Assembly (NCBI GenBank): GCA_963617275.1
Contig: CAVENX010000012.1
Coordinates: 13,985 to 77,984 of the forward strand
DNA: 64,000 nt
Origin: a bacterium
GTDB taxonomy: Bacteria; Bacillota; Clostridia; Oscillospirales; Oscillospiraceae
Direction: 5' to 3'
This document shows, piece after piece, positions 9,001-15,000 of this stretch. The position numbers are program-made. The stretch's first letter is position 1; each line of letters starts with the position of its first letter.

Positions 9001-12000
9001 GCTCGATACTAACGGCTCCTTTCCGGAGCATCTTATGGATATAGTCGGCGCCGGTCTTGTGGACAGGGTGGCGATGGATATCAAAAACGCCCCCGACAAA
9101 TACGGCATGACGGTAGGCATACCGGACTTTGACATCTCTGGTGTGGAAAAATCGAAAAATTTTCTGTTGGAGGGGCATATTGACTACGAATTCCGCACGA
9201 CCGTCGTAAAAGGACTGCACACGAAGGAAAGTCTCCTTGAGGCGGCGGAATGGATATCCGGTGCAAAGGAATATTATCTTCAGCAGTTCAAGGATTCAGG
9301 AAATGTGATAAATATAAGCGGGCTTTCCGCTTTTGATGAAGATGAAATGCACGCTCTGGCAGACTGCGTTTCCGTCTGCGTGCCCTCGGTTCAGGTGCGC
9401 GGAATATAAATTGTTTGAAAAAAATAGATATAGACGAAAGGGACAAGGTATGTATCAGGTAATCAAAAGAGACGGCAAAATAGTGGACTTCAACATCGGC
9501 AAGATCGCCGATGCTATCAAAAAAGCGTTTGAAGCGACGGAAACGGAGTTCAACGACGATATAATCGACTTTCTGGCGCTTAAAGTTTCCGCGGACTTTC
9601 TGCCGAAGATCAAGGACGGCAAAGTCGCAGTGGAGGATATCCAGGACAGCGTTGAATCCGTGCTTTCAAGAGGCGGCTATGAGGGCGTTGCAAAGGCATA
9701 CATTCTCTACCGTAAGCAGAGAGAAAAACTGCGCAACACAAAATCCACCTATCTTGACTATAAGGACACCGTTGACAAATACCTCAAGATAGAGGACTGG
9801 CGCGTAAAGGAAAACAGCACCGTCACCTACTCCGTCGGCGGCCTTATCCTCTCCAACTCCGGCGCTATCACCGCGAATTACTGGCTCAGCGAGGTCTACG
9901 ACAATGAAATCGCCGAGGCGCACCGCAACTGCGACCTGCATCTGCACGATCTCAGTATGCTCACAGGCTACTGCGCGGGCTGGAGCCTGCGTCAGCTTAT
10001 CAAGCAGGGACTCGGTATCCCCGGAAAGATCAACTCCTCCCCCGCAAGCCATCTTTCCACCCTCTGCAACCAGATGGTCAACTTCCTCGGCATCATGCAG
10101 AACGAGTGGGCCGGCGCACAGGCGTTCTCCTCGTTTGACACCTATCTTGCCCCCTTTGTAAAGGTGGACAATCTCGGCTACAAGGAAGTCAAGCAGTGCA
10201 TACAGTCCTTCATATTCGGCGTGAACACACCCTCCCGCTGGGGTACACAGGCGCCTTTTTCCAACATCACACTCGACTGGACCGTTCCCGCCGATCTCAA
10301 GGATCAGCCCGCAATAGTCGGCGGTAAAGAGATGGACTTCACATACGGCGACTGCAAAGCCGAAATGGATATGGTGAACAAGGCGTTCATCAATATCATG
10401 ATTGAGGGCGATGCAAACGGCCGCGGCTTCCAATATCCTATTCCCACCTACTCGATCACCCGCGATTTTGACTGGTCTCCCTCCGAGAACAATAAACTGC
10501 TGTTCGAGATGACCGCGAAATACGGCACCCCATACTTCTCCAACTACATCAACTCCGATATGGAGCCGTCAGACGTGCGCTCGATGTGCTGCCGCCTGAG
10601 ACTCGATCTGAGAGAGCTTCGCAAAAAGTCCGGCGGCTTCTTCGGCTCCGGCGAATCCACCGGCTCTGTCGGTGTCGTGACGATCAATATGCCTCGTATC
10701 GCATACCTCGCCGAAAACGAGGAAGATTTCTACAAGCGCCTTGACAAGCTTATGGATCTGGCGGCGCGTTCCCTCAAGATAAAGAGAACCGTCATCACAA
10801 AGCTTCTTGACGCAGGGCTTTACCCCTACACCAAGTACTATCTCGGCACGTTTGAAAATCACTTCTCCACGATCGGCCTTGTCGGCATGAATGAAGCCGG
10901 GCTCAACGCCAAGTGGATACGTGCGGACATGACGCACAAGAACTGTCAGGAATTCACCAAGAACGTCCTTGACCATATGCGTGAACGTCTGAGCGATTAT
11001 CAGGAGATGTACGGCGACCTTTACAATCTTGAAGCCACTCCTGCGGAATCTACCTCCTATCGTCTTGCAAAGCACGATGTAGAGCTGTATCCCGATATCA
11101 TCACCGCCGCAGAGCCGGGCGGAACCCCCTATTATACCAACTCTTCCCACCTGCCCGTGGGCTACACCGATGATATTTTTGAAGCCCTCGACATTCAGGA
11201 CGAGCTTCAGACCCGCTATACCTCCGGCACAGTTTTCCACGCCTTCCTCGGCGAAAAATTGCCGAGCTGGGAAGCCGCTGCAAGTCTCGTGCGCAAAATC
11301 GCGGAGAACTACAAGCTGCCTTACTACACGCTCTCCCCGACCTATTCCGTATGCAAAAACCACGGTTATCTCACCGGTGAGCAGTTCATCTGCCCCGAGT
11401 GCGGAGAACCCGCAGAGGTTTACAGCCGCATAACCGGCTATTACCGCCCCGTGCAGAATTGGAACGCCGGCAAGACTCAGGAATACCATGAGCGCAAGGA
11501 ATACAACATTGAAACCTCCGTTCTGCGCCACGACGGCCCCTTGAACGAAGAGTCCGCCGCGGAGATCAAGGAAGAAAGCTCTTCCGCCGCCGGTGAAGAC
11601 AGAAACATTCTTTTCGCCGCGCCCACCTGCCCCAACTGCCGCATCGCATACTCGTATCTTGAGAAAGCGGGCTTCCCATATGAGAAGATCATGGCGGAAG
11701 ACAACGCGGAGCTTGCGCTTGCATTCGGCGTAAAGCAGGCGCCCACCCTTGTGATAATCAAAAACGGCGAATTTGAAAAATACGCCGGAGCACCCGCGAT
11801 AAAGCAGTATCTTTCCAAATGATCGCGTAAAAATCCATATAAAAAGAGATGTGCGGAACGAAAAACCGCACATCTCAGCTTGTCAAAAAAGTCCTGTAAA
11901 GACTTTTTTGACCGCGCTTTCCGCCGAGCATTTTGAAAGCGTTCAAAATGCTGTTGCCGAGAGCCTTGAGATATCAAGGCTCTCGACGGCGGTTTATCCA

Positions 12001-15000
12001 ATTTGAGGTGGGCCTTGCCCCCTCAAGCTCCCCTGCTGCTCTATTATCGGACTTTAATACATAGCTTTTTGACAGTCTGAGATGTGCGGAACGAAAACCG
12101 CACATCTCTTTTTATGTTTTGAAATAAAATTCGGGCAGACATTCGACAAGGAGATGCCTGCCCAGATATTGACATTGATTTTTTACTCTATGCCGAGCAC
12201 CTTGTAATCCTGTGCTTCAACGGCGGCCTTGAGCACGTCGTCGCTTACGTTTGTTGTTCTGACGATCGCATGCTTTTTCTCATGGCTGACTTCGACGACT
12301 TCAACGCCGTCAATAGCCTCAAGGCACTTTTTGACCCTTGCTTCACAGTGAGAGCACATCATACCGTCGATTTTTATTGTTTTTTCCATTGTCTTATTCT
12401 CCTTCTTCGTTTTTGGTTTTCTGAATTTATCGCGGCTTGCGTCATGCGCGTCAAAGAGGTTGAGCCTCAGTGCGTTCGATACTACGCAGAAGCTGGAAAG
12501 GCTCATTGCCGCCGCGCCCAGCATGGGGTTGAGCGTGATGCCAACTCCCGACAGCACACCGGCCGCAATGGGAATACCGATAGTGTTGTAGAAGAACGCC
12601 CAGAACAGATTTTCCTTTATATTTCTCAGCGCCGCCCGGCTCAGGCGAATCGCAGCGGCGGCGTCGCGGAGGCTTCCGTGCATCAGCACCACATCGGCAG
12701 CGTCTACCGCGATGTCCGCGCCCGCGCCGATCGCAATACCCACATCTGCACGGGTAAGGGCAGGAGCGTCGTTTATACCGTCGCCGACCATTATCACCTT
12801 GCCATCGGCGGAAAGCTTTCTTATAACGTTCTCTTTACCGTCGGGCAGAACACCGGCAATGACCTCGTCGATCCCGGCGCTTTTGCCTATCGCCTCGGCA
12901 GTACGCTTGTTGTCGCCGGTAAGCATCACAACGCGCAGTCCCATGTTTTTAAGTTCCTTGACCGCCTCACCGCTGTCGGGCTTTATGGTGTCCGCAACGG
13001 CGATTATGCCGAGCAGTCTGTCGTCCGCGGCAAAGAGCAGCGGCGTTTTACCCTGTGAAGCAAGTTCCGCAGCAATGCTTTCGTACTTTTCGTCAACGCT
13101 CAGCCGACTTTTTATAAAGCCGAGACTTCCGCCGCAGAGAACAACGCTTCCTATGCTGCCCTCAAGCCCGTTGCCTGGCAGTGCGTGAAAGTCGCTCACG
13201 GCGGGATATGAAACGCCGTTTTCGTCGGCATATAGCATGACCGCCTTTGCAAGCGGATGCTCGCTCATGCACTCAATAGCCGCAGCGGTCTTCATAAGCT
13301 CATCCGCGGAAACGCCGTCCGCACCAATGACGTCGGTGACCTTAGGCTGACCTGAAGTAACGGTTCCGGTTTTGTCGAGCACGACTATATCCGCACGCCC
13401 CGTGTTTTCAAGCGATGCTGCGGTTTTGAAGAGAATCCCGTTTTTTGCGCCCATTCCGCTGCCGACCATAATGGCCACGGGCGTTGCAAGGCCAAGTGCA
13501 CACGGACAGCTTATCACGAGCACCGAGATCCCGCGCCCTATTGCAAAGCCGAAGCTTTCACCGAGGGCAAGCCATACTATCATTGTCACAAGCGCGATCG
13601 ACATGACGATCGGCACAAAAACGCCGGAAACCTTGTCCGCAGTCTTGGCGATAGGCGCTTTTGTCGCGGCGGCGTCGCTGACCATACGGATTATCTGGGA
13701 AAGCGTCGTGTCCTCTCCGACACGCACCGCACGGCAGCGTATGAAACCGACCTGATTAATCGTCGCGGCGGATACATTGTCGCCGACGGTCTTGTCAACC
13801 GGTATGCTCTCGCCCGTGAGGGCGGATTCATCGACAGCCGTGCCGCCGTCGAGCACAATGCCGTCAACCGGTATGCTCTCGCCGGGGCGCACGACGAATA
13901 TGTCCCCCTGCACAACGGAGGCAGCGGGAACTACCTGCTCCCTGCCGTTTCTGATAACCGTTGCGGTTTTGGGTGCCATATTCATAAGCCCTTTGAGCGC
14001 ATCCGTGGTTTTGCCCTTTGAGTGCGCCTCAAGCGTCTTGCCGACCGTGATAAGCGTCAGTATCATTGCGGCTGACTCAAAATACAAATCATGCATATAC
14101 GCCATCGCGCCCGCCTCGTCTGCGGCGGTCATGGCATAGAGGATATATGTGCTGTATACGAACGCGGCGGAGGAGCCGAGCGCAACAAGCGTATCCATGT
14201 TGGGTGCGCGGTTGAAAAGCGCCTTGTATCCGCTTGTAAAGAACCTGCCGTTTATTATCATCACAATGACGGTCAGTAAAAGCTCCGTCAGCGCGATAGC
14301 AATACAGTTGCCGTCAAAAAACTCCGGCAGCGGCCAACCCCACATTGTGTGACCCATTGACACATACATGAGCACCGCCAAAAAACCGAGCGAGGTGAAA
14401 AGCCGCTTTTTGAGTGCAGGCGTTTCCCTGTCCTCAAGTGCGGCGGCATCGCTGCCGGTGCTCCGGCTGCTTTCCGCACCCTTGACGCTTGCGCCGTATC
14501 CCGCCGCTTCGACCGCAGCGATTATTTCGCCGTCGCTTGCGCTTCCGTCAACACCCATGGAATTTGTCAGCAGGCTCACCGCACATTCCCTTACGCCCGG
14601 AACCTTGGACACAGCCTTTTCAACTCTTGCCGAGCATGCGGCACAGCTCATGCCGGTAACATTAAATTGTCTCATAACACCACCCTTTTCTTTTATTCCA
14701 AGCAAGCGCAGACCGCGCCGCATTTCAGCGGAAGCGCGGCTTTTTCGGACTTTTCCGTCCTCGGCCCGCCTGTGTCGGCCATATTATATTCTTTCATGCC
14801 CTCAAGGTCAATAACCGTTGGAAATACTTAACAAATCCGCAAAAAACTCCTTTCCGGAAAACCGGAAAGGAGTTTGTTTTTTATTATCTTTCGTTTTAAA
14901 TAGCGCTTCTGAGCTTCTCCAGAAACTCATACGGCACACTGAGCGTTCCTTTGCCTGTACCGAGGGAAATGGCAGGTTTGTTGCTGCCATGGAAATCGCT

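What the first reader, a model, noticed from the sequence alone, without database searches (positions are those of the whole stretch)
11846..12113. Repeat copy 2 sits inside the nrdD terminator, with the entire ~30-nt hairpin duplicated on both flanks
Seen in the sequence:
- gagatgtgcggaacgaaaaaccgcacatctc (11846-11876) lies immediately left of the element.
- gagatgtgcggaacgaaaaccgcacatctc (12079-12108) lies immediately right of it.
- The two differ by one loop A. Only the right copy keeps the T-run.

A direct duplication this long, covering a complete stem-loop, is far larger than typical 2-12 bp target-site duplications.

Inference: insertion was targeted to, or mediated by, the extruded terminator hairpin, through widely staggered cuts or replication-dependent insertion at hairpins. 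A consequence is that nrdD transcription should read through the U-less left hairpin and the element before terminating.
Basis: partly seen in the sequence, partly recalled or inferred. Interest (0 to 1): 0.7.

Follow-up and report, generated by a model that had tools for sequence, protein, structure and literature searches.

The report
IS1182-type MITE duplicating a terminator hairpin
A 203-base non-coding mobile element, related by its ends to IS1182-family insertion sequences, has landed in the terminator between nrdD and a convergent ATPase gene and copied the whole terminator hairpin onto both of its flanks; this is striking, but it proves to be normal behaviour for this transposon family.

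Summary
A 31-nt hairpin (11846-11876) and a 30-nt copy (12079-12108) flank a ~203-nt element (11876-12078).

- **Empty sites.** A strain encoding the identical NrdD has one hairpin and no element (L001). Copy c3 also has an empty site with one hairpin (L165).
- **Other copies.** Each carries a different, locus-specific hairpin. Of 25 distinct sites, 10 have the whole stem-loop duplicated (23-42 nt). The repeat is therefore a target-site duplication, not part of the element.
- **Identity.** The element is a MITE whose ends match IS1182-family insertion sequences (18/19 nt at one end). Autonomous copies in metagenomes and finished Listeria and Sutcliffiella plasmids show the same whole-hairpin duplications.
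- **False lead.** An IS110 bridge-RNA transposase that seemed to be the partner is a nested passenger in a sister MITE.
- **Literature.** Hairpin and terminator targeting is already reported for IS1272 and ISCbo5. This is a new member of a known kind.
- **Mechanism (inferred).** The two strand transfers probably occur at the two bases of the stem-loop.
The staggered-cut idea is supported. The terminator is bidirectional, so each copy keeps one U-tract. Read-through of nrdD into the element is plausible but untested.

The parts
9450..11822 (+). nrdD (anaerobic ribonucleotide reductase with a C-terminal glutaredoxin-like extension). This is the upstream gene whose terminator is the target.
   Evidence: ORF. 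Pfam ATP-cone + NRDD on the identical protein.
11839..11845 (.). A-tract (ATAAAAA) left of the hairpin. It reads as the U-tract of the terminator on the - strand.
   Evidence: Sequence. In the - strand fold the hairpin is followed by UUUUUAUA.
11846..11876 (.). Left copy of the terminator stem-loop (31 nt, 11-bp stem, loop with 5 A). It retains the ancestral loop length. The last base, C11876, may be the first base of the element.
   Evidence: The empty site L001 has the same 5-A loop.
11876..11891 (+). Left terminal inverted repeat of the element, CAGCTTGTCAAAAAAG. It is also the outer arm of the 5' hairpin at 11882-11912.
   Evidence: Alignment of copies. Match to IS1182-family termini.
11877..12078 (+). 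MITE copy c2 (202-203 nt, no transposase). It consists of the TIRs, a 5' hairpin, two perfect 11-12-bp hairpins, a fourth hairpin and a 3' tail.
   Evidence: Four copies in the window and 38 loci in Oscillospiraceae MAGs. Absent from the empty site L001. Structure.
11983..12042 (+). The most conserved internal core of the element (TCGACGGCGGTTTATCCAATTTGAGG.GGGCCTTGCCCCCTCAAGCTCCCC.GCTGCTCT). Its function is unknown.
   Evidence: Nearly invariant over 28 distinct copies, including diverged members. No Rfam match.
12064..12078 (+). Right terminal inverted repeat, GCTTTTTGACAGTCT. It contains an outward-facing TTGACA.
   Evidence: In copy c1 the reverse complement matches the IRL of the L206 IS1182-family IS at 18 of 19 positions.
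12079..12108 (.). Right copy of the terminator stem-loop (30 nt, loop with 4 A). This is the duplicated copy, and it keeps the + strand T-tract.
   Evidence: It is the only + strand terminator-like site found by the scan.
12109..12113 (+). T-tract (TTTTT) of the nrdD terminator.
12183..14675 (-). Convergent heavy-metal P-type ATPase gene that shares the bidirectional terminator.
   Evidence: Translation. Pfam HMA, E1-E2_ATPase and Hydrolase.
1686..1931 (+). Copy c1 (1699-1899). A 13-nt repeat CAAAAATCTCCCC (1686-1698 and 1900-1912) equals only the left arm of the terminator hairpin that lies complete on the right (1900-1931).
28713..28973 (+). Copy c3 (28742-28943), flanked by a 29-nt whole-hairpin repeat (28713-28741 and 28945-28973). 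The left copy equals the empty-site sequence. The right copy has a 'perfected' left arm.
   Evidence: Empty site L165.
43482..43681 (+). Copy c4, with no flank repeat. A related strain (L164) has the same left flank but a different right end and neighbour gene, so a rearrangement between copies is likely.

Best explanation
The element at 11876-12078 is a miniature, non-autonomous transposable element (MITE). Its terminal inverted repeats are those of a group of IS1182-family (DDE transposase) insertion sequences found in gut Clostridia.

This family chooses DNA that can form a stem-loop, in practice intrinsic terminators at gene ends, with no requirement for primary sequence. The element inserted into the bidirectional terminator shared by nrdD and the convergent ATPase gene. 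The whole stem-loop (29-30 nt), but not the A/T tracts, was duplicated as a target-site duplication.

The most likely mechanism is as follows. The two strand-transfer reactions hit the two strands at the two bases of the stem-loop. These positions are 20-40 bp apart in linear DNA but lie next to each other at the four-way junction of an extruded cruciform. Repair synthesis then fills the two hairpin-length gaps.

**Shown:**
- The repeat is target-derived.
- Its length tracks the local hairpin.
- Empty sites hold one hairpin.
- The ends are related to IS1182-family ISs, and those ISs do the same thing.

**Inferred:**
- Mobilisation in trans by such a transposase.
- The cruciform or junction geometry.
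- Gap repair.
- The transcriptional consequence. After insertion each hairpin copy keeps one U-tract, so nrdD transcripts should cross the element in sense and ATPase transcripts in antisense before terminating.

The confidence of 0.78 applies to the identity (an IS1182-type MITE with a genuine hairpin-spanning target duplication). My confidence in the specific junction/cruciform geometry is about 0.4.
For: **The repeat is a target duplication.**
- Empty site for c2 is L001. It encodes the identical NrdD, has a spacer 232-234 nt shorter and carries a single hairpin.
- Empty site for c3 is L165. Its flanks are 100% identical and it has a single hairpin equal to the left copy.

**The repeat tracks the local hairpin.**
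- Each copy has its own hairpin. Among 25 distinct family-1 sites, 10 have whole-stem-loop repeats of 23-42 nt and 2 have partial repeats. Twenty of the 25 have a hairpin abutting at least one end.
- At random positions a hairpin abuts both sides at 1.3%.
- Repeats are centred on the palindrome, with the A-tract left outside on the left and the T-tract on the right.
- A sister ~190-nt MITE family with the same ends behaves identically (L045, L077, L088, L046, L083, L108).

**The partner family is IS1182.**
- ISs of 1,508-1,526 bp encode proteins that hit NCBIfam NF033551 'IS1182 family transposase' at 385-398 bits, against a cut-off of 270.
- Their termini are CAGTCTGTCAAARAAC. The c1 right end matches the L206 IRL at 18 of 19 positions. 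The left end CAGCTTGTCAAAAAAG matches the L195 IRL at 14 of 16.

**Autonomous ISs do the same.**
- Every end seen abuts a hairpin.
- L208 (21 nt) and L218 (30 nt) have whole-hairpin repeats.
- The same hairpins recur to the left of one copy and to the right of another.
- Finished plasmids show a 30-nt hairpin on both sides in Sutcliffiella pBH-BAT-167 and a 21-nt hairpin on both sides in Listeria pLIS32.

**Literature.**
- IS1272/TnSha1 target terminator hairpins with no sequence specificity (PMC4923244).
- IS1272 replaces whole target inverted-repeat structures of 21-85 bp (PMC5678879).
- ISCbo5/ISBma2 insertion sites are hairpins at gene ends (PMC3098183).
- From my own knowledge, ISfinder lists direct repeats of 0-60 bp for the IS1182 family.
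Against: - No IS1182-family transposase was found in the window, in the 38 MAG loci or in the 120 loci fetched with the exact left-end motif, apart from L179. Co-residence with the MITE in one genome is therefore not shown, and no IS with exactly the MITE's left end was recovered.
- The MITE interior is unrelated to the IS and is more conserved than its ends, which is unusual for a simple deletion derivative.
- Many copies lack a full repeat: left-only, right-only, different hairpins or none. These need secondary explanations such as recombination between copies (L164, L175/L176/L178), mis-assembly, decay or alternative outcomes.
- Three sites do not look like simple staggered-cut products. 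At c1 the repeat is the left arm only. At L023 and L050 the left flank has only the right arm while the right flank has the full hairpin.
- The empty allele L001 differs from the occupied allele at the stem-base pair (T-A against G-C), so it is not an isogenic ancestor.
- Cruciform extrusion and the positions of strand transfer are not observed. They are only inferred from the products.
Confidence: 0.78

Rival explanations
1. The element is a non-autonomous derivative of an IS110-family (bridge-RNA-guided, DEDD/serine recombinase) element, and its conserved structured core is the bridge RNA. It integrates by conservative recombination next to a target stem-loop. The hairpin ends up on both sides because the two strands are exchanged at different ends of the palindrome, and heteroduplex repair or sister recombination follows.
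For: - A 1,734-nt element with exactly these ends encodes an IS110-family RNA-guided transposase (NCBIfam NF033542, 220 bits; Pfam DEDD_Tnp_IS110 + Transposase_20).
- That composite sits at several loci, one with the same hairpin on both sides (L178).
- ISPpu10 needs a GC-rich stem-loop 5' of its target (bioRxiv 10.64898/2026.03.19.712850).
- ISPpu9 mobilises a small sRNA module in trans (PMC12288879).
- The model would predict the observed mix of both-sides, left-only, right-only and no hairpin.
Against: - A close relative of that IS110 (88% identical transposase, L187) aligns only to positions 136-1684 of the composite. It lacks the outer ~135 and ~50 nt and sits in an unrelated site with a similar short target sequence.
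- Those outer parts are exactly the ~190-nt sister MITE, interrupted at TTTCC-TT|…|TT-TCACAC. The IS110 is therefore a nested, sequence-specific passenger and not the owner of the ends.
- The targets of our element share no sequence that a fixed guide RNA could pair with.
- The hairpins of the core lack the internal guide loops of bridge RNAs.
- IS1182-family ISs with matching termini and no IS110 gene show the same duplications.
Confidence: 0.07
2. Insertion depends on replication rather than on staggered cuts. A fork or repair polymerase stalls at the extruded terminator hairpin, switches template to copy the element, and switches back upstream of the hairpin. The hairpin is therefore copied twice.
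For: - In c3 the right copy differs from both the ancestral sequence (empty site) and the left copy by two changes. These make its left arm the exact reverse complement of its right arm, as expected from fold-back template switching during new synthesis.
- The same trend, with the right copy the more perfect one, appears at L010a, L045 and L046.
- The right copy of c2 has lost one loop A relative to the empty site.
- Partial copies (c1, L023, L050, L053) could reflect incomplete copying across a hairpin.
Against: - The element has canonical terminal inverted repeats shared with DDE-transposase ISs, and its junctions are precise to about 1 nt at all sites. Template switching needs microhomology, and none is evident.
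- The 'perfecting' changes are equally explained by errors in ordinary gap-filling after staggered strand transfer, or by selection on the right copy, which is the functional + strand terminator. L077 shows the opposite pattern.
- Autonomous 1.5-kb ISs give the same product.
Confidence: 0.1
3. The flanking hairpins are not created on insertion. Either they belong to the element as its terminal repeats, or the site already carried two tandem hairpins.
For: Because the hairpin is a palindrome, it aligns as an extension of the inverted repeats. At L036 a hairpin identical to that of L012 lies to the right of a copy at a different locus, as if a hairpin had moved with the element.
Against: - Every copy has a different hairpin.
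- The empty sites L001 and L165 carry exactly one hairpin.
Confidence: 0.01

Closest known systems
IS1272 / TnSha1 of staphylococci (IS1182 family)
   Same: DDE transposase family related by the termini. Targets stem-loop-forming inverted repeats, mostly transcription terminators, of varied size and sequence, with recognition by structure (PMC4923244, PMC5678879).
   Different: IS1272 insertion deletes or replaces part or all of the target inverted-repeat structure and leaves no duplication. Here the whole structure is duplicated, which is the mirror outcome. IS1272 is autonomous, whereas the window element is a 203-nt MITE.
ISCbo5 / ISBma2 (IS1182 family; Clostridium botulinum group III, C. 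novyi, Burkholderia)
   Same: Multi-copy element whose insertion sites are hairpins at gene ends that probably act as terminators. It sits in intergenic regions and avoids disrupting genes (PMC3098183).
   Different: It is an autonomous IS. The paper speaks of a 'surrounding hairpin' but does not analyse whole-hairpin duplication. I did not examine its flanks myself.
Annotated IS1182-family ISs in Sutcliffiella horikoshii pBH-BAT-167 and Listeria monocytogenes pLIS32
   Same: Termini CAGCTTGTAGACAAA and CAGACTGTAGACAAA begin like the window element (CAGCTTGT…). Each is flanked on both sides by the identical complete hairpin (30 nt and 21 nt), with the A-tract on the left and the T-tract on the right.
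   Different: They are autonomous 1.57-kb elements. Their transposases are only ~45-47% identical to the gut-Clostridia ISs whose ends best match the MITE.
IS110 family (IS621, ISPpu9, ISPpu10; bridge-RNA recombinases)
   Same: They often insert next to or into palindromic repeats. ISPpu10 requires a target stem-loop, and ISPpu9 mobilises a small RNA module in trans (PMC12288879; bioRxiv 10.64898/2026.03.19.712850). An IS110 element is physically nested in the sister MITE family.
   Different: They are sequence-specific through a guide RNA, share a 2-nt core and make no long duplication. The IS110 found here has its own, different ends.
CRISPR spacer integration by Cas1-Cas2 (analogy only, from my own knowledge)
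   Same: Two staggered nucleophilic attacks at the two borders of an often palindromic ~30-bp repeat, followed by gap repair, duplicate the whole repeat.
   Different: The enzyme, substrate and biology are unrelated. It is not a transposon and there is no hairpin-agnostic targeting.

Membership tests
MITE derived from / mobilised by an IS1182-family IS | Terminal inverted repeats matching those of an autonomous IS of the family | tested here: met
   The c1 right end (reverse complement) AGACTGTCAAAGAACTATG matches the L206 IRL AGTCTGTCAAAGAACTATG at 18 of 19 positions. The left end CAGCTTGTCAAAAAAG matches the L195 IRL CAGTTTGTCAAAAAAC at 14 of 16. Both share the CAG…TGTCAAA core. The transposases are IS1182 family by NCBIfam.
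MITE derived from / mobilised by an IS1182-family IS | Small, multi-copy and without a transposase gene | tested here: met
   The element is 201-207 nt. There are 4 copies in the window, 38 loci in MAGs and more than 120 metagenome hits. It is too short for a transposase, and tblastn found none inside.
MITE derived from / mobilised by an IS1182-family IS | Presence/absence polymorphism with a target-site duplication created on insertion | tested here: met
   Empty against filled alleles at c2 (L001) and c3 (L165). There is one hairpin when empty and two when filled.
MITE derived from / mobilised by an IS1182-family IS | Same target choice and duplication behaviour as the autonomous IS | tested here: met
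   Autonomous ISs abut hairpins at every end seen. Whole-hairpin repeats occur at L208 and L218, in Sutcliffiella pBH-BAT-167 and in Listeria pLIS32.
MITE derived from / mobilised by an IS1182-family IS | A cognate transposase present in the same genome and able to mobilise the ends in trans | not testable with these tools
   No IS1182 gene was found in the window or in the fetched MAG loci. A transposition assay is needed.
MITE derived from / mobilised by an IS1182-family IS | Interior derived from the parent IS by internal deletion | tested here: not met
   The IS non-coding ends are only ~66 and ~26 nt and do not resemble the MITE interior. The interior is an unrelated, conserved, structured 'cargo'. 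This argues against a simple deletion derivative. It does not argue against use of the same ends.
IS110-family element or derivative | Ends of the mobile unit coincide with the ends used by the IS110 recombinase | tested here: not met
   The IS110 unit is positions 136-1684 of the composite. The relative L187 lacks the outer parts.
IS110-family element or derivative | Sequence-specific target shared by all copies, with a 2-nt core and no long duplication | tested here: not met
   The targets are unrelated hairpins and the repeats are 23-42 nt.
Intrinsic (rho-independent) terminator as target | GC-rich stem-loop followed by a U-tract just downstream of a stop codon | tested here: met
   The scan finds 12079-12108 + TTTTT. 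The empty site has A-tract, stem and T-tract 24 nt after the nrdD stop. The - strand U-tract lies beside the left copy. Termination itself was not measured.
IS200/IS605 PATE, REP/RAYT, class C group II intron | No target duplication. Also a fixed 4-5-nt target (IS200/IS605), a GTAG-type REP next to a RAYT gene, or group II intron RNA domains | tested here: not met
   Long duplications are present. Only a weak YT|C preference appears at the left junction. There is no Rfam intron or other RNA family match. RAYT or TnpA genes were not searched for.

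The most novel reading that the evidence does not exclude
The hairpin-length, sequence-independent duplications would show that IS1182-family transposases integrate at the four-way junction of an extruded cruciform, attacking the two symmetric strands at the base of the stem-loops. Duplication (seen here) and the 'inverted-repeat replacement' of IS1272 would then be the two polarities of one structure-guided reaction. 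In addition, the conserved structured core carried by this MITE could be a functional RNA spread to dozens of terminators, where it would be transcribed in sense and antisense by read-through from convergent genes.
Probability: 0.3. Interest if true: 0.65.

Novelty: new member of a known kind. Interest (0 to 1): 0.4.

Why it matters
**Annotation.** This shows how to read a very common pattern in gut Clostridia genomes. Short repeats sit in terminators with the terminator hairpin on both sides, and these are IS1182-type MITE insertions. They break MAG assemblies, since many copies lie at contig ends, and they mediate rearrangements (L164, L175/L176/L178).

**Mechanism.** Target duplications whose length is set by the target's own secondary structure (21-42 bp) are rare among DDE transposons. 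They are hard to explain with a fixed-geometry transpososome. The paired empty and filled sites and the many independent insertions collected here give a ready data set for testing structure-guided (cruciform) integration. They also help relate it to the unexplained IS1272 'IR-replacing' mode.

**Host.** Because the terminator is duplicated, gene expression is largely protected and each convergent gene keeps a terminator. This may explain why these elements are tolerated in high copy number.

Tried and rejected
1. **Rfam.** The gathering scan of the whole window and the E-value scan of 11780-12180 gave no family for the element. The only hit was a TPP riboswitch elsewhere.
2. **Autonomous partner within held sequence.** A candidate in L014 with ends 1.57 kb apart turned out to be an ordinary gene between a 42-nt mini-element and a stray palindrome.
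3. **Viral contig scan with the left-end motif.** It gave only a chance match in coding DNA.
4. **L105.** Two 42-nt palindromes 1.95 kb apart bracket an aminopeptidase gene, not a transposase.
5. **IS110 partner.** I held for a time that the IS110 RNA-guided transposase was the partner and that the core was a bridge RNA. One search overturned this by showing that the IS110 is a nested passenger.
6. **'Mini' 42-nt palindromes as a separate class.** Most are simply the perfect left-end hairpin of the ~190-nt sister family.
7. **Gene-orientation analysis with crude stop-to-stop ORFs.** It was too noisy to use.
8. **Empty sites for c1 and c4.** For c1 I found only occupied or truncated contigs. 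For c4 I found a rearranged allele.
9. **One preprint could not be read.** 'Half-match recombination…' (bioRxiv 10.64898/2026.08.31.748434) is not held.
10. **Rejected on the evidence.** The hairpin as part of the element; pre-existing tandem hairpins; IS200/IS605-type single-strand transposition; REP/RAYT; class C group II intron.

Full report
**1. The observation**

- Left: GAGATGTGCGGAACGAAAAACCGCACATCTC at 11846-11876.
- Right: GAGATGTGCGGAACGAAAACCGCACATCTC at 12079-12108.
- They differ by one loop A.

This is not a chance match. A search allowing three mismatches finds no other copy in the window, with 0 expected. Aligning the two 60-nt flanks scores 55, against a shuffle mean of 13 and a maximum of 23.

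Between them lies a ~203-nt element. It is present four times in the window, always on the + strand, at 90-92% identity:
- c1 1699-1899
- c2 11877-12078
- c3 28742-28943
- c4 43482-43681

The upstream gene is nrdD (Pfam ATP-cone + NRDD). The downstream gene is a convergent P-type ATPase.

On the - strand the left hairpin copy is followed by UUUUUAUA. The original hairpin was therefore a bidirectional terminator, and after insertion each copy keeps one U-tract. The scan calls only the right copy as a + strand terminator.

**2. The hairpin is target DNA, not part of the element**

Each copy is flanked by a different hairpin:
- c2: 30/31 nt, the whole stem-loop.
- c3: 29 nt, the whole stem-loop.
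- c1: 13 nt, only the left arm of a terminator that lies complete on the right.
- c4: no repeat.

Exact-protein look-ups recovered empty alleles.
- L001 encodes the identical NrdD. Its nrdD-ATPase spacer is about 232 nt shorter and holds a single hairpin with the 5-A loop of the left copy.
- L165 is identical to the c3 flanks and has a single hairpin.

**3. Catalogue of other copies**

A conserved-core pattern found 38 loci in several uncultured Oscillospiraceae MAGs. The 25 distinct complete sites divide as follows:

| Flank pattern | Sites |
|---|---|
| Whole stem-loop on both sides (23-42 nt) | 10 |
| Partial repeat | 2 |
| Hairpin on the left only | 4 |
| Hairpin on the right only | 2 |
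| Different hairpins left and right | 2 |
| No hairpin | 5 |

Hairpins abut both ends at 48% of sites, against 1.3% of random positions. The repeats are centred on the palindrome, with the A-tract staying on the left and the T-tract on the right. One nucleotide, nearly always C, lies between the left repeat and AGCTTG. The element therefore starts CAGCTTGTCAAAAAAG and ends …TTTTTTGACAGTCT.

**4. Anatomy of the element**

The element has imperfect terminal inverted repeats. It also has a 5' hairpin built on the left repeat, two perfect 11-12-bp hairpins, a fourth hairpin and a tail.

The most conserved part is an internal core, not the ends: TCGACGGCGGTTTATCCAATTTGAGG.GGGCCTTGCCCCCTCAAGCTCCCC.GCTGCTCT. 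Diverged members keep the hairpins through different sequences (L019), and some stem pairs covary. The consensus fold is somewhat better on the + strand (-51.9 against -42.4 kcal/mol). No Rfam family matches. The function of this cargo is unknown.

**5. Finding the partner, including a false lead**

A metagenome scan with the left-end motif gave 120 loci. One of them, L148, holds a 1,734-nt element with the same ends. It encodes an IS110-family RNA-guided transposase. I first took this to be the autonomous parent.

That reading failed on three counts.
- A relative with an 88% identical transposase (L187) aligns only to positions 136-1684 of the composite. It lacks the outer ~135 and ~50 nt.
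- Those outer parts are exactly a second, ~190-nt non-autonomous family with the same ends.
- That family is interrupted at TTTCC-TT|IS110|TT-TCACAC.

The IS110 element is thus a sequence-specific passenger nested in a sister MITE.

In L179 an IS with a DDE transposase ends …GTTCTTTGACAGACT directly against a hairpin. Full-length homologues are IS1182-family transposases (NCBIfam NF033551, 385-398 bits against a cut-off of 270; Pfam DUF772 + DDE_Tnp_1 + DDE_Tnp_1_6). Their ISs are 1,508-1,526 bp long with termini CAGTCTGTCAAARAAC or CAGTTTGTCAAAAAAC.
- The right end of window copy c1 matches the L206 IRL at 18 of 19 positions.
- The MITE left end matches the L195 IRL at 14 of 16.

**6. The autonomous ISs behave the same way**

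Every IS end abuts a hairpin.
- L208 has AGACCCCTCAAAGAGGGGTCT (21 nt) on both sides.
- L218 has AGGAGGCTGCCTCGTGAGAGGCAGCCTCCT (30 nt) on both sides.
- The other contigs pair the left junction of one site with the right junction of another. The same hairpins recur to the left of one copy and to the right of another. This fits every site being hairpin|IS|hairpin, followed by recombination between copies or chimeric short-read assembly through the repeat.

Finished plasmids settle the point.
- In Sutcliffiella horikoshii pBH-BAT-167 the annotated IS1182-family IS (IRL CAGCTTGTAGACAAA) is flanked on both sides by the identical 30-nt hairpin AAAGCACTTGTCTAAAAAGACAGGTGCTTT.
- In Listeria monocytogenes pLIS32 it is flanked by the 21-nt hairpin AGACAGCCGCAATGGCTGTCT.
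- An Exiguobacterium plasmid has different hairpins on the two sides, so mixed flanks also occur in real molecules.

**7. What is already known**

- IS1272/TnSha1 (IS1182 family) insert into terminator hairpins without primary-sequence specificity and delete part of the hairpin (PMC4923244).
- Wan et al. describe replacement of the whole target inverted-repeat structure, 21-85 bp, with no duplication (PMC5678879).
- ISCbo5/ISBma2 insertion sites are hairpins at gene ends that probably act as terminators (PMC3098183).
- Other family members make 4-bp repeats (PMC3281130, PMC3196728).
- From my own knowledge, ISfinder lists direct repeats of 0-60 bp for this family.

Hairpin targeting and unusually long, variable repeats are therefore family traits. 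The window element is a new non-autonomous member.

**8. Mechanism**

*Shown:* the repeat is target-derived, and its length equals the local stem-loop whatever the sequence.

*Inferred:* the two strand transfers occur at the two bases of the stem-loop, one on each strand. These positions are 20-40 bp apart in B-form DNA. They are neighbours at the four-way junction of an extruded cruciform. This would explain how one enzyme geometry yields repeats of 21-42 bp. Gap repair then copies the hairpin on each side. With the opposite polarity the same geometry would delete the hairpin, as reported for IS1272.

One detail is compatible with new synthesis across a hairpin-forming template. At c3 the empty site and the left copy share an imperfect stem (AAGCAGCCGG…CCCGCCGCTT). 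The right copy's left arm is instead the exact reverse complement of its right arm. The right copy is also the more perfect one at L010a, L045 and L046, though not at L077. Selection on the right copy as the working + strand terminator could explain this too.

Some features remain unexplained.
- Partial repeats: c1 has the left arm only and L053 the right arm only.
- At L023 and L050 the left flank has only the right arm while the right flank has the full hairpin.

**9. Consequences**

nrdD transcripts would pass the U-less left hairpin and the element, then stop at the right copy. It is untested. By symmetry, ATPase transcripts should cross the element in antisense and stop at the left copy.

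The copies also act as recombination substrates. L164 has c4's left flank joined to a different right end and neighbour gene. L175, L176 and L178 share halves of one site.

**10. Verdict**

The finding is a MITE with IS1182-family ends that made a terminator-spanning target duplication. This is a new member of a known kind, with a mechanism that is still unresolved and is worth testing.

Noticed in passing
L148 (- strand), L175-L184; compare L187: An IS110-family RNA-guided (bridge-RNA) transposase element of ~1,549 nt is nested at a fixed position (TTTCC-TT|…|TT-TCACAC, just after the hairpin GGAAACCCTGACGGTTTCC) inside the ~190-nt sister MITE. The composite occurs at several genomic sites, so one mobile element appears to use another as its specific landing pad and then to travel with it.
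   Followed up: partly
window 11983-12042 and the equivalent part of all copies; L009, L019: The internal core of the MITE is more conserved than its ends. It is retained in diverged members whose hairpins have different sequences, and at L009 it occurs without recognisable ends. This suggests a selected function, perhaps an RNA. No Rfam family matches.
   Followed up: partly
L030 versus L013 (orthologous site): In L030 the MITE carries an extra ~83-nt insertion in the loop of its fourth hairpin (…GAGGCGGGCCT[GTCTCGCTGCGG…GCTGCGCTAC]CCCTCAA…). This may be another small element that targets hairpins.
   Followed up: no
L014 1874-1916 (- strand); L031 ~6632-6672; window 1948-1975, 48908-48923, 49049-49076: There are 42-nt 'mini' versions, with the left-end hairpin fused directly to a right end, and solitary TTGTCAAAGAAG…CTTCTTTGACAA palindromes. 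One lies directly after a full copy (L031) and one 50 nt after window copy c1.
   Followed up: partly
window 26029-26090: A solitary right-end-like motif TTTTGACAGTCT is followed immediately by a strong terminator hairpin (AAACGGGCTGCGGCAAGATGTAAATCTTGCCGCAGCCCGTTTTTT). It may be a remnant or a diverged family member.
   Followed up: no
L017 and L014 copies (alignment): The sequences flanking hairpin 2 of the element are inverted relative to other copies (CCGCCG…GTTACCG becomes CGGCAAC…CGGCGG), as if the hairpin module had flipped by template switching.
   Followed up: no
window, all four MITE copies (1699, 11877, 28742, 43482): All four copies in 64 kb are on the + strand. The chance of this is 1 in 8. 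Orientation relative to replication was not examined.
   Followed up: no
L036 versus L012 (same MAG, CAVEAL01): The hairpin that flanks the L012 copy on both sides (AGCGGAGGCATAATGCCTCCGCT plus Ts) also lies to the right of the L036 copy, whose downstream sequence is different. A hairpin copy may have travelled with the element, or the contig may be chimeric.
   Followed up: partly
window 39443-39557 (- strand): TPP riboswitch (RF00059, 63.4 bits, above the gathering score).
   Followed up: no
window 5578-5725: A run of six imperfect 18-24-nt tandem units (GCAAACGCC-like) was reported by the repeat finder. It is probably a repetitive coding segment.
   Followed up: no
L001 versus window, 11839-11846 and 12108-12109: The empty and occupied alleles differ by a compensatory change at the base pair closing the stem (T-A against G-C) and by the A-tract layout, although the NrdD proteins are identical. 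The palindrome appears to evolve by symmetric changes.
   Followed up: partly
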